Part shown: positions 689-22,158 of the stretch, piece by piece
How positions within the stretch are numbered: the first letter of the stretch is position 1
Layout of the letters: every line of letters starts with the position of its first letter
Assembly: GCA_951812625.1 (NCBI GenBank)
Contig: CATOSP010000001.1
Coordinates: 136,065 to 200,064, forward strand
Direction of reading: 5' to 3'
DNA: 64,000 bases
Origin: an uncultured Dehalococcoidia bacterium
GTDB lineage: Bacteria; Chloroflexota; Dehalococcoidia; Lucifugimonadales; UBA3495
Notes under the pieces: model-generated
Seen by the model: the letters and a program-made list of their open reading frames with translations, nothing else
The model's database searches: none
Told to the model about the DNA's origin: nothing
Position numbers and translations under genes: made by a program

Positions 689-753
689 TACGCCACCTCA
701 ACACTCCTTTGGTTCCCTGAAATTCTATCCCTTTTTGATCTGCAACTGTAGTG
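1..753 (-). mobile_element. IS701-family insertion sequence, copy 1 (cut off by window start)
   Basis: Positions 1-753 are colinear with the complete 1410-bp copies at 3381-4790 and 20437-21846. It has the same terminus GATCTGCAACTGTAGTG (737-753). This is followed by CTAA (754-757), the CTAR tetranucleotide duplicated around the complete copies. Confidence 0.85.
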
Positions 754-826
754 CTAAAGGGTGTCGTGAAAACAATGAGAGGGTGGTAAATTGCTGGAAA
801 CGGGGAGAGTGTGGGAGGTGGGGAGT

Positions 827-3303: not shown

Positions 3304-3380
3304 TCTTGCCTCCGCTATGCTGCTTAAGTTTTGCCGCTCGTCTGGGAAATTTGCTAGCCAGGAAATATCAGATGGCCTAG

Positions 3381-4790: not shown

Positions 4791-5025
4791 CTAGCCTGTC
4801 CTCGCGGAGATGGGCAGTGCGCGCGTCTCCATTAGTCTGGCCGGAACGTCGCATTCTGCGAATCTGTTTGGGCGGGACGTGAATACGAATAACGTCTCAT
4901 TTTCCAAGTGATTTGCTGACTTTCGTATCTGCTGTTTCTTCCCTGTCCAGTTCCAAGTCTCTCCAGTGGTCTGATTTGCCTTTGTATCATACCAATTATT
5001 GATATAAGTCAGCTTTCAACATCTC

Positions 5026-7748: not shown

Positions 7749-8423
7749 CTAACCCAGGTCCGGCGTGTCATCAAGAAGACCGCTTCGCACGGCCCAGACC
7801 ACCAGGTCCTGTTTGGACTTCGCACCCAGTTTGTTCTGAATGCCGTATATCGCGTTACGGATGGTCAGGGGGCTTCTGCCGCTGATCTCGGCGATTTCCG
7901 AGTACGACTTCCCCCGCGCAAACAAACTTAGTATCGCTTGCTCACGTGCGGTCAACTGGTTTGGAGCAGGGGGGTTGCTTCGCACCAATGTGGAGCGTAT
8001 TCCTTCGAATACCCGCTTTACTACCTCACTGGGGATGCGAAACTCTCCTTCGACCACGTCCCTCACAGTGGAGATCAGCTTGTCCCTTCCTGAGTATTTC
8101 TGAAGATACCCCGTCGCGCCTGCGGCCACTGCATCGATTACTGCATCCTCTTCAGTCGCGGCAGTCAGCATAAGCACACGGGTGCCCGGCAATTCCTCCC
8201 GGATCTCCCGGCAGGCGTCGATGCCGTCTTTTACCGGCATCATTACGTCCATTATTATTACGTCGGGCTTTAGAGTCTGGGCCATTTCAACGGCCTGTTG
8301 ACCGTCCCCGGCGTGCCCCACCACGTCAAAGCCGCCCGCCCGTTCCAGCACTTCCTGCAGGCCATCCCGGACGATCGTGTGATCATCCGCAATCATTACC
8401 TTGGTATTCGTGGTCGAAGTCAA
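7749..8423 (-). CDS. NarL/LuxR-family response regulator
   Basis: REC domain (IADDH...IIMDVMMP...LTAA...) followed by a LuxR-type HTH (LTAREQAILSLFARGKSYSEIAEISGRSPLTIRNAI). Confidence 0.9.
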   Translation of the reverse strand: MTSTTNTKVMIADDHTIVRDGLQEVLERAGGFDVVGHAGDGQQAVEMAQTLKPDVIIMDVMMPVKDGIDACREIREELPGTRVLMLTAATEEDAVIDAVAAGATGYLQKYSGRDKLISTVRDVVEGEFRIPSEVVKRVFEGIRSTLVRSNPPAPNQLTAREQAILSLFARGKSYSEIAEISGRSPLTIRNAIYGIQNKLGAKSKQDLVVWAVRSGLLDDTPDLG

Positions 8424-9646
8424 CTCAGCGGCCTCCTGGCTTCCCCATCATACGGAATGATACATCTTACCGTCGTGCCCATTCCAGGCCCTCCCGATTC
8501 CACCTCCAGTTTGCCGCCCATGCGCTCGGTGTCCGAGCGCATGTTTCTGAAGCCGTGGCCCCGGTCGGAGTAGTCCTGGGGAAGGCCAACCCCGTCATCC
8601 GACACCGACAATCGAAGATCGCTGGCGCCGAATTCCAGCATGATTGTAACCTTGCCGGCGCGGGAGTGTCGAAAGGCGTTGGTCATCGCATTGTGAGCTA
8701 TGGAGAAGACCAGGCGCTTGACGAAAGTAGATAGGCTCGGTTCCACACCGTTCTGCACAACCTCAGCAGGGACCGAGGTTATGGTAGTGAAAGTGCCTGC
8801 GTGGGACCTGAGCACGTGGGCCAACTCCCTTCCCTCAAATATGAGACCAACGTCTATGGGATGCCTTAACTCCCACATGGCTGATTGGGAAAGGGACCTC
8901 GTGGCTTCCAGGCTTGCAATCAATTCCTGGTTGGACTTATCTGCGATTTCTATGGCGCTCTCGATGCCCAGCCCAATCATGTAAGCGGATTGGGCGGTAG
9001 TGTCGTGTATAGCCTGTGATAGCTCAATGCGTTCCCGCTGGAGCTCCTGTTCCCGTTGAACGGCCTCTGTCCTCCTGATTCGCTCGAACCTAGAGACTAG
9101 AGTGACGGCTCCCACCACGGCGTACATGACGATTACCCTGCCAAACAGGACTTTCTCGTCCACAGATTCTAAATTGATACCTGACCCGACTGTCAGACTC
9201 ACCAAGGTATAAGCCGTGGCTACGACCGTCACCCAAATGAAGCTGAACCAGAGGGATGTGAAGACGACAGCGAACATGGCCAATGCCGGGTAGTAAATCA
9301 AGAATGCAAAGAATTGGAATCCACCCCCTATGGCGACAGTGGAAGTTATAAGGACCATATCCACCGCGCTGAGACCGAGCAGCCACTGCCATGTCACATT
9401 ATTTTTGAACTTGAGCCGGTAGTGAACATACCCATTGCACATCGCCAGCAGTGCGAGGAACGATACGTACGGTATATGCGTAAAATAGGCGAACATCGGA
9501 CGGTAGACTAACTCCACGAAGCAAACAAGCCATATGGTCCAACGTCCCCAGATCCAGATCGTTGCCGGGTACCGCAGCTCCTCAGGGTCAGGCCTCTCGA
9601 ACTGCCATGGAAGACCCAGAAACTTGTATGTTGGAGAGTTAAACAA
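8420..9646 (-). CDS. Membrane sensor histidine kinase (HisKA_3 / NarX-type)
   Basis: Multi-TM N-terminus. H-box LSQAIHDTTAQS; ATPase motifs AHNAMTNAFRHS, VSDDGVGLP and GHGFRNM. It overlaps the regulator gene by 4 nt. TTG start after GAGGA; the start is not certain. Confidence 0.85.
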   Translation of the reverse strand: MFNSPTYKFLGLPWQFERPDPEELRYPATIWIWGRWTIWLVCFVELVYRPMFAYFTHIPYVSFLALLAMCNGYVHYRLKFKNNVTWQWLLGLSAVDMVLITSTVAIGGGFQFFAFLIYYPALAMFAVVFTSLWFSFIWVTVVATAYTLVSLTVGSGINLESVDEKVLFGRVIVMYAVVGAVTLVSRFERIRRTEAVQREQELQRERIELSQAIHDTTAQSAYMIGLGIESAIEIADKSNQELIASLEATRSLSQSAMWELRHPIDVGLIFEGRELAHVLRSHAGTFTTITSVPAEVVQNGVEPSLSTFVKRLVFSIAHNAMTNAFRHSRAGKVTIMLEFGASDLRLSVSDDGVGLPQDYSDRGHGFRNMRSDTERMGGKLEVESGGPGMGTTVRCIIPYDGEARRPLS

Positions 9647-10143: not shown

Positions 10144-10261
10144 GTGATGACCCAAACCATGCACGGTCTGTTGAGCCTGACTTAGAACGGGACGGGCGGA
10201 ACCTGGAAATAGCAAGTGCATATGGGATCACTGTACTGGCTGATTCGGACTAGGCTTTGCC

Positions 10262-10654
10262 TCAGACAATGGACTCCGGATCAACCAGGTCCTCAGCCCG
10301 AGCACGGTCGTCCGTCGTGAGGGCCACTGTAGCATATCCGGAACGGCGGGCCAGGATGTGAAGACTTTGGATGTTCACACCGGCCGCCTTGAATCGTTCA
10401 GCCACCCTCGCCAACGCCCCGGGCTCATCACGCAGCCGGAATATCAGGGAGTCATCGGTGGCAGCCTTGAAACCGGCGTCGTTCAGCGCGTGAAGCGCCC
10501 GGTCGGTGTCGTCAGTCGTGAGGGTCACTATACCCTGCTCCCCGGCTCTCTCGGTGTCCAGGGACTCGATGTTGATGCCCACGTCCGCCAGGGCCATTGT
10601 GATGTCCGCTATCACCCCGACCTCGTTCCTCGCCATGATGACAATCCTTTCCAT
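10262..10654 (-). CDS. ACT-domain protein (two ACT repeats)
   Basis: ATG 10654 after GAGGAGG. Two repeats of the ACT pattern (GVIADITMALADVGINIESL and GALARVAERFKAAGVNIQSL). It starts 18 nt after the decarboxylase stop codon. Confidence 0.75.
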   Translation of the reverse strand: MERIVIMARNEVGVIADITMALADVGINIESLDTERAGEQGIVTLTTDDTDRALHALNDAGFKAATDDSLIFRLRDEPGALARVAERFKAAGVNIQSLHILARRSGYATVALTTDDRARAEDLVDPESIV

Positions 10655-10671
10655 ACAGGTGGCCCTCCTCT

Positions 10672-11784
10672 CTATCTCAAGCAATCGTCGACGAGTTCGT
10701 CCATCATATCCCGGGTCACGTGCGGCATCGTGATTACGTGGGCTATGTCCTCGAATGGGGCTATCTGCCACTTCCGGAAGACTTCCGGCTTCGGCCGGGG
10801 GAAAACGACGGTAGCCGAGTTCCGGTTCCGCCATGCGGGAACGCCAGCGTCATTGAAGCGGCGGACCCCATATTCGGCTACTTCCAGCATTCCGACCACA
10901 GTTTCCTGAAAGCCTTCATGGCCGCGCTCCTGAAAAGCGTGCCAGATGATCAGCGGCGCCAGGGCGCTCCGCGATCCCGGGATGGTGGTGTCCAGGGCTC
11001 CCACATACTCGATTGAGCGGGCGATACGCGCCACATAGTCCTTGTTGGTCAGTACGACGCCGCAGGGCAGGGGAGAGCCTATCAGCTTGTGGCCACTGAC
11101 CGCCATACTATTCACCCCGGCGTCGAATCCATGGGGCTGCGGGTCCGGGACGAAGGGAAGTATCATCCCACTGAGCGCAGCGTCAGCGTGGACGTAGGAG
11201 TCCTGCACGTCCAGGCCCTCCAGGATGTCCCTGATTCTGTACAAATCGTCCACGGCACCCTTCATGGTGGTGCCAATGTTGGCGACGATGATCGCCGGAG
11301 TGTCCCGGTTGACCCGGATGGTCTCGCGGAGGTCCTCATAGTCCACCTCTCCGTTCTCCTGGCTCTTGATCATGATGTTTCGCATGTTCAGGACGCGAAG
11401 GAGCTTAACAACGCTGTAGTGGGTGTCCTGGGAGAAGTAGACGGTGCCCGTGGGGAAGAGTTCTCGGCCCATGTACAGGCCGTACATGTTCCCCTCGGTG
11501 CCGCCGGAGGTAACGTAGCCCCACGCTTGTTCCTGATCGAGGTGCATGAGGTCCGCGAAGGTAGAGATTACCTCCCGCTCGATCTCGTGGGTATTCATGC
11601 GGAAGTTGCTGCCCTGGAACGGGTCGCCGACATTATTGGCGGAGTACTGGAGGAAAGGCAGGAGATCTGAGTAGTCGAAGTCCTGGTTGACGGGATAACC
11701 TACCTGTCGTTTAGCCATCTCCTTGAAGCTGGAGAGGAGTGCGTTCAGCCGAGCTGAGGCGGATTTTGGCAGAGGGCCGGACAT
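10672..11784 (-). CDS. hdc: PLP-dependent histidine decarboxylase
   Basis: ATG 11784 after AGGAGG. TSGGTEGN and the PLP-lysine motif AVSGHKLIGSPLPCGVV closely match Gram-negative-type histidine decarboxylases. Confidence 0.8.
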   Translation of the reverse strand: MSGPLPKSASARLNALLSSFKEMAKRQVGYPVNQDFDYSDLLPFLQYSANNVGDPFQGSNFRMNTHEIEREVISTFADLMHLDQEQAWGYVTSGGTEGNMYGLYMGRELFPTGTVYFSQDTHYSVVKLLRVLNMRNIMIKSQENGEVDYEDLRETIRVNRDTPAIIVANIGTTMKGAVDDLYRIRDILEGLDVQDSYVHADAALSGMILPFVPDPQPHGFDAGVNSMAVSGHKLIGSPLPCGVVLTNKDYVARIARSIEYVGALDTTIPGSRSALAPLIIWHAFQERGHEGFQETVVGMLEVAEYGVRRFNDAGVPAWRNRNSATVVFPRPKPEVFRKWQIAPFEDIAHVITMPHVTRDMMDELVDDCLR

Positions 11785-12519
11785 GACGTTGCCTCCTTTC
11801 CCAGGTCCCAGCAACCTGCGCTCGTGGGTGAAACACTGTTTGGAGGGTTCCTCCCCCGGTTCCTGCCGGTAAGGGTCTATGCCGGCTCGTTCGTAAGCGA
11901 CAGGGTGAAGCAGCTGACGTTGTAGGCGCCCGCCATACATTACTTATGCTTTCTTCCCGATGGGGGAATGTATCACGGGGTGATGCCTCCATCAAGCCTG
12001 TTCCGGTCGGGCTAAGTTTATTTCCTTCTTCCGTTCCGCTCCTTATGTTGAATCAGGGGATTGGGATCTGTCCTGTTCCTGCCCGTCATCTGGATGGCCC
12101 CAAGAGCACGACGTGCGTTGGAAAGAGCGACCCAGGCTGCGAGGCTACCTCATGTTCGTTCCGCTTGAGTCGACTCCCCCGGGCCGGCGGGGACAACCCT
12201 TCAGGCCATTGCAAGATTGGAGTGACGAGGGAATTGTATTTCGTAAATGTTTCGTGTATGTTTCGTAATTATTTCATGATGACAGATGTGGTGTCCTATC
12301 TACACCCTATTGCAGGTCATTGGGGGCGGAGCAGCCTGCGCCGATCGCAAGACAGGTGGGCCCGGGTAGATGGCTATCCTGTCTCCCGTTTGTATATATC
12401 CATACCTACGACTGTTCAAATTCAGCGTATGCAAACCATGTGGCGAATACGGATCGCACAGTCGAAGTAGCTGCTTAACAAACAAGACGCTCCGAAATTA
12501 TGAAAAGGATATAAGAGGA

Positions 12520-12549
12520 TTGTGACGAATACATTGCTTATGATATACT
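12520..12549 (+). promoter_or_regulatory. Putative promoter of the fusion-regulator gene
   Basis: TTGTGA-18 nt-TATACT. A similar box (TTATGA...TATACT) precedes the tandem paralogue near 15330-15360. Confidence 0.35.
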
Positions 12550-12607
12550 CCTGCACCGTTGGGCTGTCCCGGCCAGAACGGTTTATGGGCGTGCCCGACA
12601 GCTTCAT

Positions 12608-15139
12608 GTGGCTGGTGTACGCATGAAGCGCGCATATTTGAACGGATCCTATCCGTCTATTGCGCCCAAGTACGAGCATTGGGTGGAACTGATGCGCTCG
12701 TCGCAGACTTCTCATGAGGCGGTCATGTCTTCCTCTCGATTGCACGAGGGGGACACTGAAGCAGACCAACTCAGGCGCCAAAATGCGGAGTTGAGAAACA
12801 GGCTCACCAAGCTGAGTGAGGCCACTCTTCGCGTTACTGAAAACCTCGACTTCAATGCCGTCCTGCAGGAAGTTATCGACAGCGCCCGCACCCTGACCGG
12901 AGCCCGCTACGGGGCGCTCCTGACTTACGATCAGGCCGGGGGCATACAGGACTTTATCACCTCTGGACTGACTCCCGAAGAGATTGAACTGCTAACCATC
13001 TCGCCCAAAGGTCTGGGCCTTCTGGGATATCTGAACGACGTCAGAGAGCCGCTGAGGGTCTCGGACATCGCCAGCCATCCCGGTTCCGTGGGATTCCCCG
13101 AAAACCATCCGCCGATGAAGACCTTCCTCGGAATGCCTGTGAGGCATCACGGTGAGCACGTCGGCAACATCTACCTGACGGAGAAGGATGGTGGCCGGGA
13201 GTTCACGAGTGAAGACGAAGAAACCCTCGTGATGTTCGCTTCCCAGGCGGCCCACGCCATCTCGAACGGCCGACGGCATGAAGAGGCGCTTGTCGCCAAA
13301 GCCGACCTGGAGGCTCTGGTCAACATCTCGCCGGTGGGCGTCGCGGTCTTTGATGCAAGGACAGGAGAATTGGCCTTGGTTAACCAGGAGGCCCGCCGCA
13401 TCATTGGCGATGTGGGTTCCCAGGATATGCCTTGGGAACAGGTCCTTGAATTGCTGACATTTCAGCGTGCGGACGGACGCGAGCTTTCGCTTAGTGATGA
13501 CCCCATGATGAGGGTATTGCGAAGCGGAGAGACGGTTCGTGCGGAGGAAATCATCATTAATCTCCCGGACGGGAGGTCAGTTCCTACCCTGGTCAATGCC
13601 GCACCCATATATTCGGAGCAGGGCGAGATTGTGTCCGTTGTAGTCACCACACAGGATATGACACCCCTGGAAGAAGTGGGACGCCTACGCGCAGAGTTCC
13701 TCGGCATGGTCAGCCAGGAACTGCGGACTCCCCTGACCACCATCAAGGGTTCTGTCGCCGCCCTGTCGGGGGCGATGTCTTCCTCTAATGCAAGAGAGTC
13801 GGTTCAGCTCGTGCGAATCGTCGACCAGCAGGCTGACCTCATGCGCGCTCAGATCAACAGCCTGATCGAACTGACCCACATCCAGGCAGGAACATTGTCG
13901 ATCTCTCCGGAAACCGTGGACGTACTACCCCTGGTAGATACGGCGATCAGGGAGTTCCAGCGTGGCCAACCTGGGAACCCGGTAGAGAAGAACATCCCGC
14001 CGGGCTTGTCCCAGATCATGGCTGACGGACAACGCATCGTCCAGGTCCTTTACAACCTCATGTCCCACGCATCCAAGTACTCGCCCCAGTCCTCCACAAT
14101 CGCCGTGTCGGCGGTCAACGATGACCTCTACGTTGCCGTCTCAGTATCTGCCATCAGGATTGGTATGGCGGCGCCGGAATCTTCCCGGCTGTTCAGGAAG
14201 TTCTCGCGCATACGTCCAGGAGAACCGAGAGAGATGACCGGCGGAGACGACTTGGCTCTTGCCATTTGTAGGGGCATCGTGGAGGCGCATGGCGGACGAA
14301 TGTGGGCCGACAGCGGCGAAAGTGGACGTGGAATCGTACTTACCTTCGAGATTCTAGTGTCCGAAGAGGTGACAGAGAACGCAGCCCCAGGGTCCGCACA
14401 GGAGCATGATCCCTCCGAGGTTGCATCGGGCCAAAGCCCGCGGATCCTCGTGGCAGTTGATGATACAAGAACGCTGGGAGTTGTCCGTCGCATCCTTTCT
14501 CGCGCGGACTATGCACCCGTCGTGGCTGCGGGCTCTGGCGAAGTGGACCGCCTCATGTGGGAGGAGAAGCCTCAGCTTCTCCTGTTAGACATGGCAGATC
14601 TTGGGAACGACAGCTTCGACGTGATTCGAAATGTATCCGGGACATACGACGTACCGGTCATTGTCATGTCCGAGCCGGGTGACGGGGACAAGATCGTCAG
14701 AGCCTACGAAATGGGGGCCGACGGTTACATTGTGAAACCCTTCTCACCCACGGAACTCGTGGCGAGGATCAGGGCGTCCCTACGAAATCGGCCCGGGTCG
14801 CGCCGGAGCCAGAAGCCCGAGGGTTATTCACTAGGGGGCATGGCAATCAACTACGAGGGACGTGTGGTGACTGTAGGCGGACACCAAGTGCAAATGACCG
14901 CCACGGAGTACAATCTGCTCTTCGAGCTTTCCACGAACGCCGGGCGTGTCCTGACCCAGGATGAACTGCTGCAGCGGGTCTGGGGACCAGAATTTCTGGG
15001 ACAGCCCGAGGTGTTGCGCTCCTACGTGAGAAGCCTCCGCAGAAAGTTGGGAGATAACGCGAGGAACCCCTCGTACATCTTCACAGAACACGGCATCGGC
15101 TACCGGATGGCGCAGCCCCAACCGCAGTCCACCCCATAA
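12608..15139 (+). CDS. GAF-PAS-(His-less kinase-like core)-REC-OmpR-type winged-helix fusion protein, paralogue 1
   Basis: 843-aa ORF; alternative starts include ATG 12623. GAF (ARYGALLTYD...HPPMKTFLGMPV), PAS, an H-box-like FLGMVSQELRTPL with Q in place of H, a degenerate ATPase boxes region, REC (VAVDD..LLLLDM..VKPF), and wHTH (TATEYNLLFEL...YIFTEHGIGYRM). Confidence 0.85.
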   Translation: MAGVRMKRAYLNGSYPSIAPKYEHWVELMRSSQTSHEAVMSSSRLHEGDTEADQLRRQNAELRNRLTKLSEATLRVTENLDFNAVLQEVIDSARTLTGARYGALLTYDQAGGIQDFITSGLTPEEIELLTISPKGLGLLGYLNDVREPLRVSDIASHPGSVGFPENHPPMKTFLGMPVRHHGEHVGNIYLTEKDGGREFTSEDEETLVMFASQAAHAISNGRRHEEALVAKADLEALVNISPVGVAVFDARTGELALVNQEARRIIGDVGSQDMPWEQVLELLTFQRADGRELSLSDDPMMRVLRSGETVRAEEIIINLPDGRSVPTLVNAAPIYSEQGEIVSVVVTTQDMTPLEEVGRLRAEFLGMVSQELRTPLTTIKGSVAALSGAMSSSNARESVQLVRIVDQQADLMRAQINSLIELTHIQAGTLSISPETVDVLPLVDTAIREFQRGQPGNPVEKNIPPGLSQIMADGQRIVQVLYNLMSHASKYSPQSSTIAVSAVNDDLYVAVSVSAIRIGMAAPESSRLFRKFSRIRPGEPREMTGGDDLALAICRGIVEAHGGRMWADSGESGRGIVLTFEILVSEEVTENAAPGSAQEHDPSEVASGQSPRILVAVDDTRTLGVVRRILSRADYAPVVAAGSGEVDRLMWEEKPQLLLLDMADLGNDSFDVIRNVSGTYDVPVIVMSEPGDGDKIVRAYEMGADGYIVKPFSPTELVARIRASLRNRPGSRRSQKPEGYSLGGMAINYEGRVVTVGGHQVQMTATEYNLLFELSTNAGRVLTQDELLQRVWGPEFLGQPEVLRSYVRSLRRKLGDNARNPSYIFTEHGIGYRMAQPQPQSTP

Positions 15140-15501
15140 ACTGCTGCCAAAACCCCTGACGCCTCTACGCTATTGACACACGACCCGTAACCCCTAACAC
15201 GCGTATCCTCCCCAGGCTATCCAACGATCAGATACGGCATATCTAGCCCGTTTCGTGAATGAGGATTGCGCCGCTCACGTAGCTGCGCAGTCGACATAGA
15301 ACACGGAATAATAGCGATGATATGTCAATATTATGACGAATGAACGCCCAAGCTATACTTCCCCACCTCAGGAGTGCCTCGGCAAGGCAGGTTCAGGGGC
15401 ACGTCCATCGACTTCCTGTATCTTATGTGCACGTAAAACGTGGATACAACAACGTAATATCTCCATGCATGGCTCCCAAGTATGAGCATTAGGTGGAATA
15501 T

Positions 15502-17976
15502 ATGTCCTCGTCACAGACCTCTTGCCAAACAGCCATGGCTTCCTCTCAACTGGAGGAGGAGACTGAATCAGACGGGCTCAGGCGCGAATACGAGGCGCTA
15601 AAGGACCGGCTCAAGAAGCTGAGCTAGGCTACTCTTCGCATCTCCGAAAACCTAGACTTCGGAGTTGTCCTCCAGGAAATCGTCGACAATTCCCGTTCCC
15701 TGACCGGCGCCAGGTACGGGGCGCTTCTGACATACGATGAAACCGGGGCCATACAGGACTTCACCACCTCGGGACTCTCTGCCAAGGAACTGGAGTTGTT
15801 GAAAACCTCGACCAAAGGGCTGGGACTTCTCGGATCCCTGAACCAAGTCAGCAAGCCGCTGAGGATTTCAGACATAGCCAGCCATCCCAGTTCGGTCGGA
15901 TTTCCGGAGAACCACCCGACCATGAAACCCTTCCTTGGAATACCAGTCTGGTACCACGGGGAACACGTCGGCAGTATCTACCTCACCGAAAAGGAACGAG
16001 CACAGGAGTTTACCGAAGAAGACGAAGAGATCCTGGTGATGTTTGCTTCCCAGGCAGCATCGATAATCTCGAATGCCCGAAGGTATGAAGAAGAGCACCA
16101 AGCAAAGGTGTATCTTGAGACCCTGCTGGACCTCTCTCCGATGGGAGTTGTCGTCTTCAACACGCAAACGGGCGATCTGGACTTCCTTAACCAGGAAGTC
16201 AGGCGCATGATGGGGGACCTGGGGATCCCGGAAGAGGGGTTGGATGACATTTTCGAAGTATTGTCCTTTCGCCGAACCGACGGGCGAGAAATCTCCTATA
16301 TGGACCTTCCCGCCACGAGGGTGCTTCTAAGCGCCGAAACTGTCAAGGCAGAAGAAATCGTGGAGCAAGCTCCGAGCGGGGAAGAGATTACCGCCGTGAT
16401 AAACGCCGCCCCCATCTTTTCTGAATCTGGAGAGATAGTGTTGTCGGTGGTGTCTGTTTTGCAGGACATGACACCCTTGGACAGTTTGGAACGTAAGCGG
16501 GCTGAATTCTTGGGGGTGGTGAGCGAAGAGCTGAGAACCCCCTTGACGACCATCAAGGGTTCTGCCGCCGCCCTTAGAAGCATTGTTGATCCGATGAATC
16601 CGACTGAGCCACTGCAGTTGTTGCGTATCATTGACCAGCAGGCGGACCTGATGCGCAGCCAGGTTAACAGCCTCATTGAGGTGAGCCAGATAGAGACAGG
16701 AACATTGTCAGTGGTGGCCGAGTTGGCGGATGTATCAGAATTGCTAAAGGAGGCCTGCGGAGAGTTCATTCGAGACCACGGCGCCAGTGCAATAGAACCT
16801 GACATCCCGGCTGGGCTCCCCAATGTCATGGTCGACAAGCAGCGCATTGGCCAGGTATTACACAATTTCCTTCGCCAGGCCGCAAAGTACTCGAACGAAT
16901 CGGCGCCAATTAAAGTGTCTGCGTCAACGGTCGACATTTATGTTGCCATCTCGGTTTCTGTGGAAGCCTCGTTTGCTTCTCCCCAGGAAACTTCCGTCCC
17001 GTCCGACGAATCAGAAACTCCTGAAGTGTTCAAGAAGATTGTACGTTCGCACGCCAAGATCGAAGACATGGTATCTCAGGGGGAGGGCTTGGCGATTGCG
17101 TTTTGCCGTGGTGTTGTTGAGGCACACGGGGGCCGGATGCACGTGGAAGATGGAGCCGGGCCGGGAGGGATGACAATAGCCTCCACCATTCCGTCGGTTG
17201 ACGAGCCTGAAGAGAAGGCTGTATCGGTCGGCACACCCCATGCGGGGCACGACGGTTCTCCGGCAAGTGAAGCAGCCCGGATCGTAGTATCCATTGACGA
17301 TCCGCAGGTGCAGGGAACGGTCCGCCAGGTCCTTTCCAGTGCCGGTTACACGCCCATAACGGCGTACGACCTGGACAGCTTGGAGAATCTGATCAAGAAA
17401 GAGACGCCCCACCTTCTCCTGATGGATCTGTCGTCTCACGGAGCGGAAGGGTTTGAGTTAACGCGACATCTCTCCAACGCGTTCGACGTTCCAGTTATAG
17501 TACTGTCCAGCCAAGGGGATGACGAAGATATCACCCGGGCCTTCGAAATGGGAGCCGCTGACTACATGGTCAGACCCTTCTCACCCACGGAACTCGTGGC
17601 GAGAATCAAGGCGTCCCTTAGAACGCGAGCCAACTCCGACCGAACTCGGGCATTCGAAGGCTATAAGTTGGGCGACATGGCAATCAACTACGAGGGACGT
17701 GTGGTCACTGTGGGCGGACACCAAGTGCAAATGACCGCCACAGAATACAATCTGCTCTTCGAGCTTTCCACGAAGGCCGGGCGTATCCTGACCCAGGATG
17801 AACTGCTGCAGCGGGTCTGGGGACCAGAATTTCTGGGACAGCCCAAGGTGTTGCGCTCCTACGTGAGAAGCCTCCGCAGAAAGTTGGGAGATAACGCGAG
17901 GAACCCCTCGTACATCTTCACGGAACACGGCATCGGCTACCGGATGGCGCAGCCCCAACCGCAGCCCACTCCATAA
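15502..17976 (+). pseudogene. GAF-PAS-(His-less kinase-like core)-REC-wHTH fusion, paralogue 2, interrupted by in-frame TAG
   Basis: Colinear with 12608-15139. ATG 15502, in-frame TAG at 15625-15627 where paralogue 1 has GAG. The first possible restart (TTG 15796) would truncate the GAF domain. H-box reads FLGVVSEELRTPL. Confidence 0.7.
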
Positions 17977-18858
17977 ACTGCTGCCAAAACCCCTGACACC
18001 TCCAACATGGTGCCAGTAGAAACTCCAGTGGAACGCACCAGTTCTCGAGCCTGGGCAGTCTGAGTTGCGAACTTTCCGCTGGGAAATCTCCCTTTGAGAG
18101 AGCGAACGGTGCCTGAGTACCGCTTGTTAGCCACCGCGGTCCTTAACCATCCCCCACTCGGCATGGTGCAAGTACCTGTCGGCCACTCCGGAGTAGAAGG
18201 GGATTTTTCAGGGGACGATGCACCACTTTCCGTCAACTTGGAGCATCCCACAAGACTTGCATGGTCACGGGACCAGTTTCCGGGGAACAGACCGCACATT
18301 AGGAATGGTCTCTAATGCATCGCCAGCGTGCATGGTCTCGCTATCGGACCAACCACGGCCCCCTTCCCTGAAAAATCCATACAAGCAATCAGTCGGTCAA
18401 ATTGGTTACCGCAACCGTGACCTCCAGCCTTGTCGTGTTGATCTGGTCATCCCCGGCTTCCACCGTCACCAGGTATGAGTCCGGCCCTGATAGCCTCCAA
18501 GAAGCAACTTGAGGCTTCTAGAGTGCGGCACTCAAGACCAACAGCCGTAGAGTTCTGAGCGAATCTACCTATACTGGAGGGCGTAAGCAGGAGTTCGAGA
18601 GCGGTCCAGATCAAGTATTGCTCAACGGTTCTGCCAGCCGGTGCGATTCAGGCATGGTCTCGTAGGTCTCTATACCCCCACCATGATTGGTATACCAAGA
18701 GACCTACGCAGCGCGATGTGGACTATTCTGAACCAGTGTCCGCCAGGGTTCACATGGAAACATCAACCCGCCATGTCACCCGGCCGGGCAAGCCCCGGTC
18801 GATCGGTGCGCATATAAGTACACACATCGGCCAAGTGGTCTCAAAAAGGGCCGCACTA

Positions 18859-20078
18859 GTATTCAGTCAAATCAAGAATGGCAGGGGTAGAGGCGACGGA
18901 GCTTCGTTCGCGCGTCCTTGGCGGTGAAACGCCAGTTAATGGCGGATGCCGTAGTGTTACGCTCTGACACGCAGGCGTCCACGGCAGTTCCCAGGCTCTC
19001 CTCGTCGGCGTTGCGTCCGCGCAGGCAGGCCCGGGCCAGCACGCTGAACTCGGTCTCCGCCATGTTCAGCCAACTCCCGTGCCTGGGCGTGTGATGGAAC
19101 TCCAGCCGCCTGGCGATGCGCCGGGCCTCCGGGGCCGGGAAGGTCTCGTACAGCGACGCCATCCGGTGAGTGTTCAGATTGTCCAATACCAGGCGGACCA
19201 CCGGAACGTCCGGGTAGGCCTCGTCCACCAGCCAGCGCATCTGATGAGCGAAGTCCTGCATGGTGCGCCGCTGGGTTATCTCCACATGGCGCCAGCCAGC
19301 CTTGGGCTCGCAGGTCAGGAACAGGTTGCGGGTGCCGGACCGCACGTATTCGTAGTCCTCGCGCCTGGGACGTCCGGGCCCGGCCGGCAGGGGAGCCCTG
19401 GTTTCCGCGAGCAGTTGGGTGGAGGTCTCGTCGAAGCAGACCACCGGCCTCTGGGGACCGTAAGGCTCAGCGTAGAGGTCCAGCACGTCCTCAATGGCCG
19501 CCACGAACTCCCCGCCTGCCCTGGGGATACACCACTGCTGCTTCCGCCACGGCTTGAGAGTGTTTTTTTTCAGGTGCAGCCGCACCGTCTCGTGGGACAA
19601 GGATGCCACCAGCCCCAACTCCACCGCCCTGCCAGCCAGGGCGCGGAGCGTCCAGTGGTCATGGCCCTCGGGGGCCGGACTGCAGGCCAGAGCTATCAGG
19701 TGAGCTTCGACCCGCTCGTCCACCTTCCGGTACGGGTTGGGCGGGTTGTGGCGCCGCAGCGCCTCCTCCAGTCCCTCCTCCACGTACCGGCGCTTGGCGC
19801 GGCGCACGGTCCGCTCCGACACGTCAAGGGCCGCGGCTACCTGGGGAGCGGTCCAACCCTCGTCGGTCTTGAGAAGTATGCGCGCCCGCGTGATGGCCTG
19901 GGCCGAGTTCCTGCCGGCCCGGATCATCCTCTTGAGCCGTCCCTTCTCCTGCACAGTTAGATGGACTGTGTAAACCTCCTGCACCATGGATGTCCCTCCC
20001 ACAACACAACTTCAGTCCAAAAGATAGCATCCAGGGCCAGAATGTGTACTACGTGACAATGCCGCTTTGACACAATAC
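18859..20078 (-). mobile_element. IS630-family insertion sequence
   Basis: Terminal inverted repeats GTATTCAGTCAAA (18859-18871) and TTTGACACAATAC (20066-20078). Flanked by a TA/TA duplication (18857-18858 and 20079-20080), as expected for IS630/Tc1. Confidence 0.85.
18872..19987 (-). CDS. IS630-family transposase
   Basis: ATG 19987 after GGGAGGG. An N-terminal HTH is followed by the DDE_3 part (VVCFDETS...LVLDNLNTHR...FHHTPRHGSWLNMAETEFSVL). Confidence 0.9.
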   Translation of the reverse strand: MVQEVYTVHLTVQEKGRLKRMIRAGRNSAQAITRARILLKTDEGWTAPQVAAALDVSERTVRRAKRRYVEEGLEEALRRHNPPNPYRKVDERVEAHLIALACSPAPEGHDHWTLRALAGRAVELGLVASLSHETVRLHLKKNTLKPWRKQQWCIPRAGGEFVAAIEDVLDLYAEPYGPQRPVVCFDETSTQLLAETRAPLPAGPGRPRREDYEYVRSGTRNLFLTCEPKAGWRHVEITQRRTMQDFAHQMRWLVDEAYPDVPVVRLVLDNLNTHRMASLYETFPAPEARRIARRLEFHHTPRHGSWLNMAETEFSVLARACLRGRNADEESLGTAVDACVSERNTTASAINWRFTAKDARTKLRRLYPCHS

Positions 20079-20436
20079 TAGATGACCCACGGAGGTTTAA
20101 TCTCAGTTGGGGAGGACGCAGGTCTACAGTTGGGAAGCGAGGGGAATACACGGTTGACATCATCTCATACGACGATGGAGTGCGGAATACCGTAAACGAA
20201 TGGTTCGCCAAATTTGGAATCCCATACAAAATAGTTGATGTCAGGAATGTAGCGGATACAGAATTTACCGGCACCCTGAGTGCAATGGTGTTGGAGGATA
20301 GCAGAACGGGAACGATCGTTACCCCTGTAGATGTCGGCTTTGGAATAAGTCAGATTATGCCTGTAATAGTTGAAGGTGTCGCTGGAGCATGCACCATATT
20401 GTGCGTAGACCCGCCAGAGGTCCACCTTCACCCTAA

Positions 20437-21846
20437 CACTACAGTTGCAGATGTGATAGGCGCGTTTTGTAGTGGCATTGTTTGGCTTGGGCTTGGTGGC
20501 GCCGTCTCCACCACGACCAGTACAGGATGAAATCGGGCGGTTGGCTTTCTGTCCATACCAGGCGTGTCAGCAGCCGTCGCACCTCGGGGACAGTCACGGG
20601 AATCAACTCCTCACCGGGGCCGTAGTGACCCCCTTTTCTCCCTGTTCCGCCGCCTGATTTCTGATTACCGCCAGATAGGCGTGGGCCAGCATCGCCAGCG
20701 TGATGTGCCGGTACCAGCCATCCCACCGCCGCACCTCGTACTGGTCCAGGCCTACCTGACCCTTGGCCTCCTCAAAACATTCCTCTATGGTCCAGCGCCT
20801 CCCGGCGACTCTGACCAGTTCCTCCAAGGCCGTTCCTGACGGGCCATAACAGACGTAATAGGCCAGTTCCTCCGGGTTGGCCACGCTACGGCGAGCCAGC
20901 AGCCAGTGGCCCTTGCCGGGTTCTCTCAGGGGCCGTATTTCCACGGCGGCCCAATCATAGACCCGGGGCCCCTTGGCCCCGTCGCCGGCGCTGCACCTGA
21001 CCCATTCCGATTCCTCAACCTGCGCGGCCAGCCGGTCCGCCCTCACCTGTAGCGGTCCCCTGTCCGTCAAAGCCCACAGCTTCTCGTTGCTCTTTATGGC
21101 CATCACATGCGGAATCTCCTCACGCTCCAGCCACAACCGCAGGTTGCGGTCGCTGCCGTAGACCTCGTCCCCGGTAAACCAGGCGAAGGGAACACCCGAT
21201 TCCAGCACCCGTTCCAGCATCACCTGAGCCTGCTGCGGTTTGGTCCGAAAGCGGATGCTCTCCGGCACCCCGGCCTCGCGTCTGCGTGCCCAGTCATCAG
21301 CCCACACCTGGGGCAGGTACAACTCCCGGTCCAGCAGCGTCCTGCCCTTGGCCGACGCATAGGCCAGGAATACCCCGATCTGAGAGTTTTCGGTCCGCCC
21401 CGCCGTGCCGCTGTACTGGCGCTGCACCCCAACCGATTTCTCCCCTTTCTTGATGAATCCGGTCTCGTCCACCACCAAAACCGCATCTCCGTGGCCCGGA
21501 TGTTCGATCACGTACTGCCTCAGATCATCCCGGACCAGGTCCGCGTCCCAGACGTAACCGGACAGCAGGCGCTGCACCCCGTAGGGAGTGGAGTCGCCCG
21601 CCTGCTCCGCCAGTTGCCAGCCGTTCTTGCGCTCCACCGGGCTGAGCAACCCCTTCAGATATTCCAGGGCCCGCCTGCGCGGCTCCGGCCGCCGGAACCT
21701 GCCTGCGATGCACTGGTGTACCCGCTCGATGCCCTCAGCCCACCGGGCGACCTCCGCCACCTCGTCTCTCCCAACCACCACTACGGCACCTCAACACTCC
21801 TTTGGTTCCCTGAAATTCTATCCCTTTTTGATCTGCAACTGTAGTA
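20437..21846 (-). mobile_element. IS701-family insertion sequence, copy 3 (complete)
   Basis: 1410 bp with the same termini as copy 2. Flanked by the direct repeat CTAA (20433-20436 and 21847-21850). It lies inside the ATPase coding sequence. Confidence 0.9.
20603..21781 (-). CDS. IS701-family DDE transposase
   Basis: 392 aa, colinear with 3547-4725 and showing scattered substitutions. Confidence 0.9.
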   Translation of the reverse strand: MVVGRDEVAEVARWAEGIERVHQCIAGRFRRPEPRRRALEYLKGLLSPVERKNGWQLAEQAGDSTPYGVQRLLSGYVWDADLVRDDLRQYVIEHPGHGDAVLVVDETGFIKKGEKSVGVQRQYSGTAGRTENSQIGVFLAYASAKGRTLLDRELYLPQVWADDWARRREAGVPESIRFRTKPQQAQVMLERVLESGVPFAWFTGDEVYGSDRNLRLWLEREEIPHVMAIKSNEKLWALTDRGPLQVRADRLAAQVEESEWVRCSAGDGAKGPRVYDWAAVEIRPLREPGKGHWLLARRSVANPEELAYYVCYGPSGTALEELVRVAGRRWTIEECFEEAKGQVGLDQYEVRRWDGWYRHITLAMLAHAYLAVIRNQAAEQGEKGVTTAPVRS

Positions 21847-22158
21847 CTAAGCTCCAGGCAGAAATCGCGGACCTAATGGTTGAATGCCATGACAAGCAGT
21901 GGATTGTGGAAACACATAGAGAATTGCTTGTACGGCGGGTCCTGACTCGAATCGCCGAGGGCAAAATCAAGTCTACTGAAGTTTCGGTACTCTATGTAGA
22001 CCCTCCGAAAATGCCCGACGAAGGGAAGGGAAGCACCATAGAGGTACTGGATATCGAGGAGAGTGGAAGGTTTTCAGGTTCTACGCCGTGGCCGGACGGG
22101 TTCTTCGAGGACGGGTATCGTGAAATGATGGCCGCAGTCCGAGCCGGGGGTTAGGGGA

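What the first reader, a model, noticed from the sequence alone, without database searches (positions are those of the whole stretch)
12608..17976. Tandem one-polypeptide sensor/regulator fusions whose kinase core lacks the phospho-acceptor His and ATP-binding boxes
Both paralogues combine GAF + PAS + a DHp/CA-like core + REC + an OmpR-type winged helix.

- **H-box:** the phospho-acceptor His is Gln in paralogue 1 (FLGMVSQELRTPL; CAG at 13715-13717) and Glu in paralogue 2 (FLGVVSEELRTPL; GAA at 16525-16527).
- **N-box:** the Asn is His in one and Gln in the other (NLMSHASKY and NFLRQAAKY).
- **G1 box:** no DxGxG box is visible.
- **G2 box:** it reads GGDDLALA and GEGLAIA instead of GxGLGL.
- **REC:** paralogue 1 keeps DD/D/S/K. 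Paralogue 2 has Arg at the conserved Lys (YMVRPF).

This points to pseudokinase scaffolds that couple GAF/PAS sensing to a DNA-binding output without autophosphorylation. I cannot place this architecture in a described family.
Basis: partly seen in the sequence, partly recalled or inferred. Interest (0 to 1): 0.65.

Follow-up and report, generated by a model that had tools for sequence, protein, structure and literature searches.

The report
Kinase-dead fused sensor-regulator pair
Two neighbouring genes each fuse a whole bacterial two-component signalling system into one protein but have lost every residue needed to act as a kinase: one copy is intact and belongs to a large, undescribed family that has lost its kinase function about twenty separate times, and the other copy is decaying.

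Summary
The motif observations are correct. In both genes the phospho-acceptor His is replaced (Gln CAG 13715-13717; Glu GAA 16525-16527). The N-box Asn, G1 and G2 boxes are degenerate, while GAF, PAS, HisKA, HATPase_c, REC and OmpR-type wHTH all score above the Pfam cut-offs.

- Paralogue 2 really starts near 15502 and carries an in-frame TAG at 15625-15627. This TAG is polymorphic (GAG in another sample). Paralogue 2 also shows near-neutral variation and indels, so it is a recent pseudogene.
- The architecture is a huge unnamed family (more than 8000 hits), mostly in Dehalococcoidia and other MAGs whose isolate labels suggest, from my own knowledge, sponge-microbiome studies. About two thirds of members keep canonical H/N/G1/G2 boxes.
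- About one third of 50%-identity clusters lack the His. On a rough tree this is at least 21 changes. The ATP boxes decay with it, but DHp, REC and wHTH stay conserved.

Paralogue 1 sits in an old His-less (E/Q) clade, keeps the full REC active site and the ExxT phosphatase residue, shows purifying selection, and may be transcribed.

Best reading: a kinase-dead, soluble, dimeric sensor and transcription factor whose REC is still a phospho-switch fed in trans. The rival is a fully phosphorylation-independent scaffold. It is a new variant of known kinds (histidine pseudokinases; hybrid two-component systems).

The parts
12692..15139 (+). Paralogue 1, intact CDS (815 aa from ATG 12692; the longest ORF starts at GTG 12608). 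Order of parts: N-terminal coiled coil, GAF, PAS, His-less DHp, degenerate CA, REC, OmpR-type wHTH.
   Evidence: ORF. Pfam domains. The 99%-identical 815-aa P0001 is. AF2 model has mean pLDDT 76. No TM segment: maximum KD19 is 1.41.
12845..13261 (+). GAF domain of paralogue 1 (presumed ligand sensor).
   Evidence: PF13185 E 5.9e-19 and PF01590 E 2e-16.
13304..13663 (+). PAS domain of paralogue 1.
   Evidence: PF00989 E 9e-9 and PF13426 E 1e-7.
13688..13891 (+). DHp (HisKA) helical hairpin of paralogue 1. The H-box is FLGMVSQELRTPL at 13697-13735. It has Gln (CAG 13715-13717) at the phospho-acceptor position. Glu at H+1 and Thr at H+4 are kept.
   Evidence: PF00512 E 8e-12. HK853 alignment. Codon checked.
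14024..14353 (+). Degenerate CA (HATPase_c) domain of paralogue 1. N-box NLMSHASKY at 14054-14080 (Asn to His). G1 is replaced by SAIRIGM within 14138-14167. G2 is GGDDLALA at 14240-14263. The CRGIVEAHGGR stretch is kept.
   Evidence: PF02518 E 6.5e-15.. In the AF2 model the lid region 491-517 has pLDDT below 50.
14444..14773 (+). REC domain of paralogue 1 with a complete active site: DD at 14459-14464, Asp633 (815-aa numbering) within 14576-14596, Ser within 14657-14674, Lys within 14726-14743.
   Evidence: PF00072 E 1e-12. Column counts. Coordinates.
14879..15109 (+). OmpR/PhoB-type winged-helix DNA-binding domain of paralogue 1.
   Evidence: PF00486 E 4.8e-21. Foldseek hits KdpE, PrrA and MtrA.
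15502..17976 (+). Paralogue 2: same architecture, 57% aa identity to paralogue 1, but interrupted. It is a recent pseudogene. The H-box is FLGVVSEELRTPL at 16507-16545 (Glu, GAA 16525-16527). N-box NFLRQAAKY at 16864-16890. G2 GEGLAIA at 17080-17100. REC Lys is replaced by Arg (YMVRPF, 17563-17580).
15625..15627 (+). In-frame TAG (codon 42 of paralogue 2) where paralogue 1 has Glu. It is polymorphic: T in runs X1, X2 and X4, and G (GAG, Glu) in run X3.
   Evidence: TAG is an ordinary stop in this window: 15 ORFs of 300 aa or more end in TAG.
14647..15165 (+). 3' segment of paralogue 1 that is 86% identical in DNA to 17484-18002 of paralogue 2 (wHTH 95% aa identity, pS 0.13). The rest of the pair has saturated synonymous sites (pS 0.5-0.75). 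This indicates recent gene conversion of the DNA-binding end.
17484..18002 (+). Partner of the homogenised 3' segment, in paralogue 2.
12239..12282 (+). Candidate operator (inference): four direct repeats with an 11-bp period (TTTCGTAAATG TTTCGTGTATG TTTCGTAATTA TTTCATGATGA). It lies in the divergent intergenic region between the histidine decarboxylase gene and paralogue 1.
   Evidence: Three overlapping pattern matches, with 0 of 100 shuffles reaching the observed four matches. The same motif, TTTCGTGAATGTTTCGTGAATA, lies upstream of the 59%-identical His-less homologue in L083 and is the only exact hit in 83 loci. Looser matches are about 3-fold enriched upstream of family genes.
12520..12549 (+). 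Sigma-70-like promoter match upstream of paralogue 1 (consensus match only).
   Evidence: A contig of the run labelled 'RNA?' starts at 12668.

Best explanation
**What paralogue 1 is.** Paralogue 1 (12692-15139) is a functional, soluble, kinase-dead member of a large family. In that family a whole two-component system is fused into one polypeptide: GAF-PAS sensor, HisKA/HATPase_c kinase, REC, and OmpR-type DNA-binding domain.

**Shown:**
- It has no phospho-acceptor His and no Asn/G1/G2 ATP-binding residues, so it cannot autophosphorylate in the canonical way.
- The DHp hairpin, the CA fold, the complete REC active site (DD, Asp633, Ser, Lys, Tyr) and the wHTH are all retained.
- In its His-less clade these parts are conserved like those of functional relatives.

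**Inferred mechanism:**
- The dead kinase core serves as the dimerisation spine and the REC-docking surface. It carries GAF/PAS conformational signals to the output.
- The REC Asp is still the on/off switch. It is phosphorylated in trans, either by His-bearing paralogues (which co-occur in the same genomes of related species) or by small phospho-donors.
- The retained Thr at H+4 is the one residue required exclusively for HisKA phosphatase activity. It would let the sensor part set the REC~P level by signal-dependent dephosphorylation or shielding.
- The active dimer then binds 11-bp-period direct repeats. The TTTCGT array at 12239-12282 is the candidate site.

**Paralogue 2.** Paralogue 2 (15502-17976) is an old duplicate. 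Its DNA-binding end was recently homogenised with paralogue 1, and it has just been inactivated by a nonsense mutation. It is a decaying copy.
For: **Loss of catalytic residues.** HK853 alignment, column counts, codons.

**Family and clade structure.**
- More than 8000 hits with the same six Pfam domains.
- Among the top 120 homologues, 80 have His and canonical N/G1/G2. About 40 have E/Q/D/N, with all ATP boxes degenerate together but CKGIVEAHGGR invariant.
- Paralogues 1 and 2 fall in a long-branched, mostly E/Q clade.

**Constraint.**
- At matched divergence (about 50% overall identity), His-less members keep DHp 62%, CA 42%, REC 49% and wHTH 77%, against a linker at 17%.
- Population SNPs in paralogue 1 are 10 synonymous to 9 non-synonymous, with no indels.
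- Between paralogues 1 and 2, pN/pS is 0.2-0.6 in the domains and 0.9 in the linker.

**REC.** In the His-less group Asp is kept in 41/42, Ser or Cys in 42/42 and Lys in 39/42.

**Phosphatase residue.** The H+4 Thr is present in both paralogues. [quoted passage not shown] They also show that the His is not strictly required in CrdS or EnvZ.

**His-bearing paralogues in the same genomes as His-less ones.** L005(E)/L030(H), L072(N)/L022(H) and L019(N)/L034(H).

**Transcription hint.** Three contigs of a run labelled 'RNA?' map only inside paralogue 1 within an 8-kb stretch.

**Operator candidate.**

**Decay of paralogue 2.**
- The TAG is polymorphic.
- A 1-nt deletion and a 14-nt insertion occur in other samples.
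- SNPs are 6 synonymous to 14 non-synonymous, and 1 to 12 outside the converted wHTH end.
Against: - No biochemical data exist. Every mechanistic step after 'cannot autophosphorylate' is inference.
- No kinase gene is adjacent to any His-less member examined, and neighbourhoods vary. No His-bearing paralogue lies in this 64-kb window.
- The H+4 Thr is kept in only 7 of 40 His-less close relatives (Met in 16), so a phosphatase role cannot be general.
- Among more divergent His-less cluster representatives the REC Asp is kept in only 29/44, against 69/77 in His-bearing ones. The family can therefore evidently work without Asp phosphorylation.
- The first acidic residue of the DD pair is D/E in only 26/42 of the close His-less group.
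- The run taken as RNA is only guessed to be RNA.
- Population variants come from low-depth contigs, and only 40 of 137 were listed.
- The tree is a rough NJ tree.
Confidence: 0.45

Rival explanations
1. Phosphorylation-independent scaffold. The dead DHp/CA core and the REC are purely structural. GAF/PAS ligand binding twists the DHp dimer and so repositions the two tethered REC-wHTH units, switching DNA binding with no phosphoryl group involved. In effect this is a one-component regulator built from two-component parts.
For: - All kinase residues are lost.
- There is no partner kinase nearby in any locus.
- His loss recurs at least 21 times in the family, which suggests the fused architecture easily tolerates loss of phosphotransfer.
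- A third of divergent His-less representatives have also lost the REC Asp.
- Gao, Wu & Stock 2024 (PMC11253607) point out that tethering DNA-binding domains to a dimeric HK could by itself promote their dimerisation.
Against: - In the clade to which paralogue 1 belongs, the REC Asp (41/42), Ser/Cys (42/42) and Lys (39/42) are kept while the ATP boxes drift freely. This is hard to explain if phosphorylation no longer matters.
- Paralogue 1 has the full quintet and is not a pseudo-receiver by sequence.
Confidence: 0.33
2. Both genes are simply decaying remnants of a canonical fused kinase-regulator and have no function.
For: - Paralogue 2 has a premature stop and near-neutral variation.
- His-less loci carry internal stops far more often than His-bearing ones: 4/10 against 1/79, Fisher p = 4e-4.
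- The region is rich in IS elements.
Against: - Paralogue 1 is an uninterrupted 815-codon ORF in every sample laid on it.
- Its His-less clade spans about 50% sequence divergence with intact architecture and conserved DHp, REC and wHTH.
- Domain-wise pN/pS is well below 1, while the linker is about 0.9.
- Even the stop-carrying pair L005/L007 has dN/dS of 0.20.
- There is possible transcript evidence.
Confidence: 0.1
3. Non-canonical catalysis. The core still transfers phosphate using another residue or another nucleotide-binding mode, for example Ser/Thr/Tyr phosphorylation as reported for some degenerate HK-like domains.
For: - The Bergerat fold is retained and predicted with confidence outside the lid.
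- Plant phytochrome HK-related domains appear among the fold matches.
Against: - The Mg-ATP ligand Asn, the G1 Asp and two of the three G2 glycines are all replaced.
- These positions vary freely among close His-less relatives, so no alternative conserved catalytic set is visible.
- The lid region is predicted to be disordered.
Confidence: 0.05

Closest known systems
Bacteroides hybrid two-component systems (HTCS; e.g. Gao, Wu & Stock 2024, PMC11253607)
   Same: Sensor, histidine-kinase core, receiver and DNA-binding domain are all in a single polypeptide. The DNA-binding domains are tethered to a dimeric HK spine.
   Different: - HTCS are membrane proteins with periplasmic glycan sensors, an active kinase and an AraC-type HTH.
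- The proteins here are soluble (no TM segment).
- They sense through cytoplasmic GAF+PAS and carry an OmpR/PhoB winged helix.
- In this clade they have lost all kinase residues.
PsmA of Streptomyces, a hybrid histidine pseudokinase (Mavi & Flardh 2026, PMC12963549)
   Same: - It is a HisKA-type hybrid HK-like protein with a REC domain.
- The H-box His is replaced (Glu, Asp, Gln and others) and the ATP-binding motifs are not conserved.
- It is nevertheless conserved and functional, and its autokinase activity was shown to be absent.
   Different: - PsmA has no DNA-binding output and acts on the DivIVA polarisome.
[quoted passage not shown]
- PsmA is one orthologous lineage. Here the loss recurs many times inside a family whose majority is canonical.
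DivL of Caulobacter (pseudokinase with Tyr at the His position; PMC4211667)
   Same: It is a HisKA-type kinase fold that has lost the phospho-acceptor His. It was repurposed as a sensor and scaffold that reads the state of a receiver domain. DivL is among the PDB sequence hits (4q20, E 4e-17).
   Different: DivL is membrane-anchored. It binds a separate phospho-DivK and controls another kinase (CckA). It has no fused REC or DNA-binding domain.
Canonical OmpR/PhoB-family response regulators (KdpE, MtrA, PhoB, PrrA)
   Same: The C-terminal 230 residues align end to end with MtrA, YycF, PhoB and KdpE models (E 1e-35 to 1e-42) and with their structures. All REC active-site residues are present in paralogue 1.
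   Different: No NCBIfam equivalog cut-off is reached. The regulator is fused behind a 580-residue sensor and pseudokinase module instead of being a separate protein.

Membership tests
Active HisKA-type sensor histidine kinase | DHp/HisKA helical hairpin and HATPase_c (Bergerat) fold | tested here: met
   PF00512 and PF02518 are above gathering score in both paralogues. HK853 E is 1e-25. Fold matches to WalK, VicK and HK853.
Active HisKA-type sensor histidine kinase | Phospho-acceptor His in the H-box | tested here: not met
   Gln in paralogue 1 and Glu in paralogue 2, in register with HK853 His260.
Active HisKA-type sensor histidine kinase | N-box Asn, G1 DxGxG and G2 GxGxG nucleotide-binding residues | tested here: not met
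   Asn is His or Gln. G1 is AIRIG or absent. G2 is GDDLAL or GEGLAI.
Active HisKA-type sensor histidine kinase | Autophosphorylation with ATP | not testable with these tools
   Needs purified protein and [gamma-32P]ATP.
HisKA phosphatase-competent DHp | E/DxxT/N motif next to the His position, with T/N at H+4 required exclusively for phosphatase activity (PMC3510030) | tested here: met
   Q-E-L-R-T in paralogue 1 and E-E-L-R-T in paralogue 2. The Thr is kept in only 7/40 close His-less relatives. The activity itself was not tested.
OmpR/PhoB-family response regulator | REC fold with acidic pair, phospho-acceptor Asp, Ser/Thr and Lys | tested here: met
   PF00072. Paralogue 1 has DD, D, S, K. 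Paralogue 2 has Arg for Lys.
OmpR/PhoB-family response regulator | C-terminal Trans_reg_C winged helix | tested here: met
   PF00486 E 5e-21 and 4e-20.
OmpR/PhoB-family response regulator | Binding to direct-repeat DNA as a head-to-tail dimer | tested here: inconclusive
   A candidate array of four repeats with an 11-bp period lies at 12239-12282. A matching motif lies upstream of one homologue. There is no binding data.
Hybrid two-component system (HTCS, Bacteroides type) | HK core, REC and DNA-binding domain in one chain | tested here: met
Hybrid two-component system (HTCS, Bacteroides type) | Membrane-spanning protein with a periplasmic sensor | tested here: not met
   The maximum 19-residue Kyte-Doolittle mean is 1.41-1.45, so there is no TM segment. 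The sensors are GAF and PAS.
Hybrid two-component system (HTCS, Bacteroides type) | AraC-type HTH output | tested here: not met
   The output is Trans_reg_C (OmpR type), and there is no AraC hit.
Bacterial histidine pseudokinases (DivL, PsmA kind) | HK fold without the phospho-acceptor His, conserved across relatives rather than a one-off lesion | tested here: met
   About 40 of the top 120 homologues and 44 of 121 cluster representatives lack His while keeping the full architecture. DHp identity is 62% at 52% overall identity.
Bacterial histidine pseudokinases (DivL, PsmA kind) | Demonstrated absence of autokinase activity and a demonstrated non-catalytic role | not testable with these tools
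   Requires biochemistry and genetics.
Pseudogene (paralogue 2 only) | Premature stop or frameshift relative to intact relatives | tested here: met
   TAG at codon 42. The next in-frame start is 57 codons downstream, inside GAF. The intact GAG allele is present in run X3.
Pseudogene (paralogue 2 only) | Relaxed selective constraint | tested here: inconclusive
   Listed SNPs are 6 synonymous to 14 non-synonymous, against 10 to 9 in paralogue 1. Further indels occur in other samples. These come from low-depth contigs and only 40 of 137 variants were listed.

The most novel reading that the evidence does not exclude
Fusing kinase and regulator into one chain may make phosphotransfer dispensable. 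If so, this family would be a natural series of about twenty independent transitions from a two-component to a one-component regulator, each keeping the dead kinase core as an allosteric spine.

A second oddity is that several His-less members, including paralogue 2, carry an in-frame stop only within the first 66 codons. In one species pair the interrupted gene is still under purifying selection on both sides of the stop (dN/dS 0.2-0.3). This could mean read-through, re-initiation or a split gene is part of how these proteins are made.
Probability: 0.3. Interest if true: 0.7.

Novelty: new variant of a known kind. Interest (0 to 1): 0.5.

Why it matters
- Histidine pseudokinases are known only from a few individually studied cases (DivL, PsmA, RocA). 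Single-chain kinase-regulator-DNA-binding proteins are known mainly from Bacteroides HTCS.
- Here both ideas meet in a very large, unnamed family of soluble regulators. The family is abundant in Dehalococcoidia and in MAGs of several other phyla. From their isolate labels, these MAGs appear, from my own knowledge, to come from sponge-microbiome studies.
- Active and dead-kinase forms coexist in this family, often in the same genome, and the loss has happened many times.
- That gives matched natural pairs for asking what a kinase core does when it no longer phosphorylates. It also allows testing whether a fused receiver stays a phospho-switch.
- For genome annotation, about a third of proteins of this architecture should not be called histidine kinases.

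Tried and rejected
- **Stop-codon reassignment as an explanation for the TAG in paralogue 2.** Rejected: TAG, TGA and TAA all terminate long ORFs in the window, and a GAG allele exists in another sample.
- **A conserved partner kinase or conserved target next to His-less genes.** None was found. The neighbourhoods of P0009, P0082 and P0004 differ.
- **A named family.** No NCBIfam model reaches its cut-off. Five literature searches found no paper on this architecture.
- **Another family member in the window.** tblastn finds only the two genes.
- **A single origin for the His-less state.** Rejected on the rough tree, which shows 23 maximal His-less clades and at least 21 changes.
- **The AF2 monomer model.** It confirmed the domain folds and a low-confidence lid. 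With pTM 0.39 it says nothing reliable about REC-DHp docking. A dimer could not be predicted with the tool.
- **Identifying the source genome.** The best genome-contig hit is only 54-56% identical, so the presence of a His-bearing paralogue in this organism could not be checked.

Full report
**1. What is at the coordinates**

- Two large ORFs lie head to tail on the + strand: 12608-15139 (843 aa) and 15796-17976 (726 aa).
- Both score above Pfam gathering thresholds for GAF, PAS, HisKA, HATPase_c, Response_reg and Trans_reg_C.
- A 99%-identical database protein (P0001) has 815 aa. The likely start of paralogue 1 is therefore ATG 12692.
- Neither protein has a hydrophobic segment long enough to span a membrane.
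- An AlphaFold2 model of paralogue 1 built from a 49-sequence alignment has mean pLDDT 76. It shows, in order:
  - an N-terminal long helix, then GAF, a long linker helix and PAS;
  - a two-helix DHp hairpin and an alpha/beta CA domain, whose lid region (residues 491-517) is below pLDDT 50;
  - a disordered linker, then REC and a winged helix.
- Foldseek against the PDB returns WalK, bacteriophytochromes, VicK and YF1 for the front part. It returns KdpE, PrrA and MtrA for the rear part.

**2. The motif claims are right**

- phmmer against PDB sequences aligns the core with Thermotoga HK853 over 222 residues (E about 1e-25).
- The register is unambiguous:

| HK853 | Paralogue 1 |
|---|---|
| EFIANISHELRTPLT | EFLGMVSQELRTPLT |
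| NLLNNGVKYS | NLMSHASKYS |
| VEDNGIGI | VSAIRIGM |
| GTGLGLAI | GDDLALAI |

- The REC of paralogue 1 has the acidic pair, the phospho-acceptor Asp, Ser and Lys. Paralogue 2 has Arg at the Lys position.

**3.

- Homology to paralogue 1 continues upstream of 15796 in the same frame, back to VEYMSSSQTS at 15493-15522.
- An in-frame TAG at 15625-15627 sits where paralogue 1 has Glu (KLS*ATLRI against KLSEATLRV).
- The next in-frame start codon is the TTG at 15796, which is in the middle of the GAF domain.
- TAG is a normal stop here: 15 ORFs of 300 aa or more in the window end in TAG.
- Contigs of public runs that hold this sequence show T at 15625 in three samples and G (GAG, Glu) in a fourth. 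The nonsense allele is therefore real, common and young.
- Other samples add a 1-nt deletion at 16260 and a 14-nt insertion after 17619 in paralogue 2. No indel is reported in paralogue 1.
- Among the listed variants, paralogue 1 has 10 synonymous and 9 non-synonymous changes. Paralogue 2 has 6 and 14, with only 1 synonymous against 12 non-synonymous upstream of the wHTH.
- These counts come from low-depth contigs and from 40 of 137 variants, so they are indicative only.

History of the pair:
- The two genes are an old duplication. Synonymous differences are saturated (pS 0.5-0.75) in every domain, and pN/pS is 0.26-0.6 in the domains against 0.92 in the linker.
- The exception is the last roughly 520 nt. 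This stretch is 86% identical in DNA, including 26 nt past the stop, with 95% aa identity in the wHTH and pS 0.13.
- The DNA-binding end was therefore recently homogenised by gene conversion. Both proteins would recognise the same sites.
- About 300 nt upstream of each gene is also homologous.

**4. The family**

- More than 8000 database proteins match at E below 1e-20, and the listed ones share the same six-domain architecture.
- In one-genome-per-species contigs, 557 stretches encode relatives.
  - Most are in Dehalococcoidia MAGs.
  - Others are in Caldilineaceae, Latescibacterota, Acidimicrobiia, Gemmatimonadetes, Bryobacterales and one gammaproteobacterial bin.
  - Several genomes carry two or three copies.
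- From my own knowledge, many of the isolate labels look like those of sponge-microbiome studies. This was not verified here.
- No NCBIfam model reaches its cut-off. Five literature searches found nothing on this architecture.

**5. Is the His-less state decay or a conserved condition?**

Close homologues:
- In a MAFFT alignment of the two window paralogues with the 120 best homologues (122 sequences), the phospho-acceptor column reads H 80, E 27, Q 12, D 2, N 1.
- The 80 His-bearing proteins keep the N-box Asn (59/80), G1 D-G-x-G (72, 76, 72 of 80) and G2 G-x-G-x-G (76, 80, 70 of 80).
- The 42 His-less sequences have lost all of these together, yet keep C-K/R-G-I-V-E-A-H-G-G-R invariant.
- At matched overall divergence (50-52% identity), domain identities are as follows:

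| Domain | His-less | His-bearing |
|---|---|---|
| DHp | 62% | 60% |
| CA | 42% | 51% |
| REC | 49% | 41% |
| wHTH | 77% | 64% |
| Linker | 17% | 18% |

- On a neighbour-joining tree, paralogues 1 and 2 lie in a long-branched, mostly E/Q clade.

Wider sample:
- An exhaustive HMMER search of 1.84 billion 50%-identity cluster representatives returned its best 150. Of these, 121 cover all regions.
- Among those 121, 77 have His and 44 do not (Q 14, R 12, E 7, D 5, N 3, S 2, Y 1).
- Fitch parsimony on a rough NJ tree needs at least 21 changes and finds 23 maximal His-less clades.
- Loss of the kinase residues is therefore recurrent in this family. In the clade of paralogue 1 it is old and compatible with continued selection on the rest of the protein.
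Canonical relatives exist and are the majority, but paralogue 1 is not simply decaying.

**6. The receiver and the phosphatase residue**

- In the close His-less group the REC Asp is kept in 41/42, Ser or Cys in 42/42 and Lys in 39/42. The second acidic residue is D/E in 41/42 and the first in 26/42.
- These positions are held while the ATP boxes drift. This argues that Asp phosphorylation still matters in this clade.
- Among the more divergent His-less representatives the Asp is kept in only 29/44, against 69/77 in His-bearing ones. Some lineages have therefore gone on to lose it.
- Paralogues 1 and 2 keep E-L-R-T after the former His position.
[quoted passage not shown] They also showed that the His is not strictly needed for phosphatase activity in CrdS and EnvZ.
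- This Thr is kept in only 7/40 of the close His-less relatives (Met in 16), so the point applies to these two genes rather than to the clade.
- His-bearing and His-less copies occur in the same genomes: L005(E)/L030(H) about 16 kb apart, L072(N)/L022(H), and L019(N)/L034(H).
- No kinase gene lies next to the His-less genes examined. None lies elsewhere in this window apart from an unrelated NarL-type pair at 7749-9646.

**7. Mechanism**

Shown:
- Paralogue 1 cannot be a canonical autokinase.
- It is intact, conserved and probably transcribed. Three contigs of a run labelled 'RNA?' fall only inside paralogue 1 within 8 kb.

Inferred, my preferred reading (0.45):
- The dead DHp/CA core is the dimerisation spine and REC-docking surface that carries GAF/PAS signals.
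- The REC Asp remains the switch and is fed in trans, by His-bearing paralogues or by small phospho-donors.
- The H+4 Thr allows signal-dependent dephosphorylation.

Main rival (0.33):
- Phosphorylation has been abandoned altogether, and the module works by direct allostery.

Weaker rivals:
- Pure decay (0.10).
- Non-canonical catalysis (0.05).

**8. A candidate operator**

- The divergent intergenic region lies between a histidine decarboxylase gene (10672-11940, minus strand; NF002748, 469 bits against a cut-off of 305) and paralogue 1.
- It holds four direct repeats with an 11-bp period, TTTCGTnnnnn, at 12239-12282.
- The pattern gives three overlapping hits there and one elsewhere in the window. 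The expectation is 0.29, and no shuffle of 100 reaches four.
- Across 83 fetched loci (1.46 Mb) the only exact match is TTTCGTGAATGTTTCGTGAATA. It lies about 580 bp (9318-9334 against 9902) upstream of the likely start of the His-less homologue P0004 in L083.
- Matches with up to two mismatches are about three times more frequent in the 1.2 kb upstream of family genes than in the loci overall.
- An 11-bp periodicity of direct repeats is what OmpR/PhoB-type regulators bind. This is established knowledge, not tested here.
- The array lies outside the duplicated upstream segment, so paralogue 2 has no copy of it.

**9. An unexplained pattern**

- His-less homologues carry in-frame stops only near the N terminus:
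  - paralogue 2: TAG at codon 42;
  - L083: TAG at the residue equivalent to 32;
  - L005 and L007: a shared TGA at residue 66, where others have Arg. These are two species with 81% aa identity.
- For L005 against L007, Nei-Gojobori dN/dS is 0.20 downstream of the stop (dS 0.49). It is 0.32 for the 54 codons upstream.
- Only one of 79 His-bearing loci has internal stops (Fisher p = 4e-4).
- This may reflect greater dispensability of His-less copies combined with tolerance of N-terminal truncation. It could instead reflect read-through or a split gene. I could not decide.

**10. Comparison with what is known, and verdict**

- In working principle the closest systems are the Bacteroides hybrid two-component systems. 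They share the single chain, but are membrane-bound, use an AraC-type output and have an active kinase (PMC11253607).
- The other close systems are the histidine pseudokinases PsmA (PMC12963549) and DivL (PMC4211667).
  - PsmA is a hybrid HK-like protein with Glu, Asp or Gln at the His position and degenerate ATP motifs. It has no DNA-binding domain and no ExxT motif.
  - DivL has Tyr at the His position.
- The proteins here fail the defining tests for an active histidine kinase and for a Bacteroides-type HTCS. They pass those for an OmpR/PhoB-type regulator and for a conserved pseudokinase.
- I rate this a new variant of known kinds.
- Interest is moderate (0.5). The single locus is explainable, and one of its two genes is a pseudogene. 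The family-wide pattern of recurrent kinase loss in a fused system is not described in the papers I could search, and it is directly testable.

Noticed in passing
L005 8001-10511; L007 8001-10478; L083 9902-12343; window 15625-15627: His-less homologues carry in-frame stops only within the first 66 codons. L005 and L007, from two species, share the same TGA, yet dN/dS is 0.20 downstream and 0.32 upstream of it. This could be read-through, re-initiation or a split gene. It is unresolved.
   Followed up: partly
window 12239-12282; L083 9318-9340: A four-fold direct repeat with an 11-bp period, TTTCGTnnnnn, lies between the histidine decarboxylase gene and paralogue 1. A near-identical double repeat lies upstream of a 59%-identical His-less homologue in another genome. 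It is a candidate OmpR-type operator. A minus-strand promoter-like match (12297-12268) overlaps it.
   Followed up: partly
window 14647-15165 and 17484-18002: The 3' ends of the two paralogues (wHTH plus 26 nt past the stop) are 86% identical in DNA, while synonymous sites are saturated in the rest of the genes. This indicates recent gene conversion confined to the DNA-binding end.
   Followed up: yes
window 10262-11940 (- strand): A PLP-dependent histidine decarboxylase (NF002748, 469 bits, above cut-off) sits with an overlapping or adjacent ACT-domain ORF, divergently oriented from paralogue 1. It is a possible regulatory target. This neighbourhood is not conserved next to the homologues examined.
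   Followed up: partly
window 1-756, 3376-4793, 20432-21849; 18872-20002: There are three copies of an IS701-like element (one cut by the window start), each with a DDE_5 transposase of 392 aa and 96-97% identical to one another. An IS630-like DDE_3 transposase lies just downstream of paralogue 2. Two of the IS copies bracket the region that holds the regulators.
   Followed up: partly
window 7749-9646 (- strand): An ordinary NarL-type two-component pair: a HisKA_3/HATPase_c kinase (8420-9646) and a REC-GerE regulator (7749-8423). It is unrelated to the fused family.
   Followed up: no
loci L014, L026, L033, L037, L044, L052, L059, L062, L064, L067, L068: Family members at 45-51% identity are recorded in MAGs labelled Latescibacterota, Acidimicrobiia, Gemmatimonadetes, Bryobacterales and Gammaproteobacteria, as well as Chloroflexota. 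This reflects either horizontal spread among co-habiting symbionts or binning errors.
   Followed up: no
window 12668-12843, 13652-13739, 14099-14272: In a 2013 run guessed to be RNA from the same host label, the only contigs matching the 8-kb stretch 10200-18200 lie inside paralogue 1. None falls on paralogue 2 or the decarboxylase gene.
   Followed up: partly
P0002, P0005, P0008, P0011, P0018, P0021, P0026, P0065, P0084: A sub-branch of the family is about 180-370 residues longer, with an extra N-terminal GAF (GAF_3) and, in one case, an IclR-type HTH hit. P0026 and P0084 in it have Asp at the His position.
   Followed up: no
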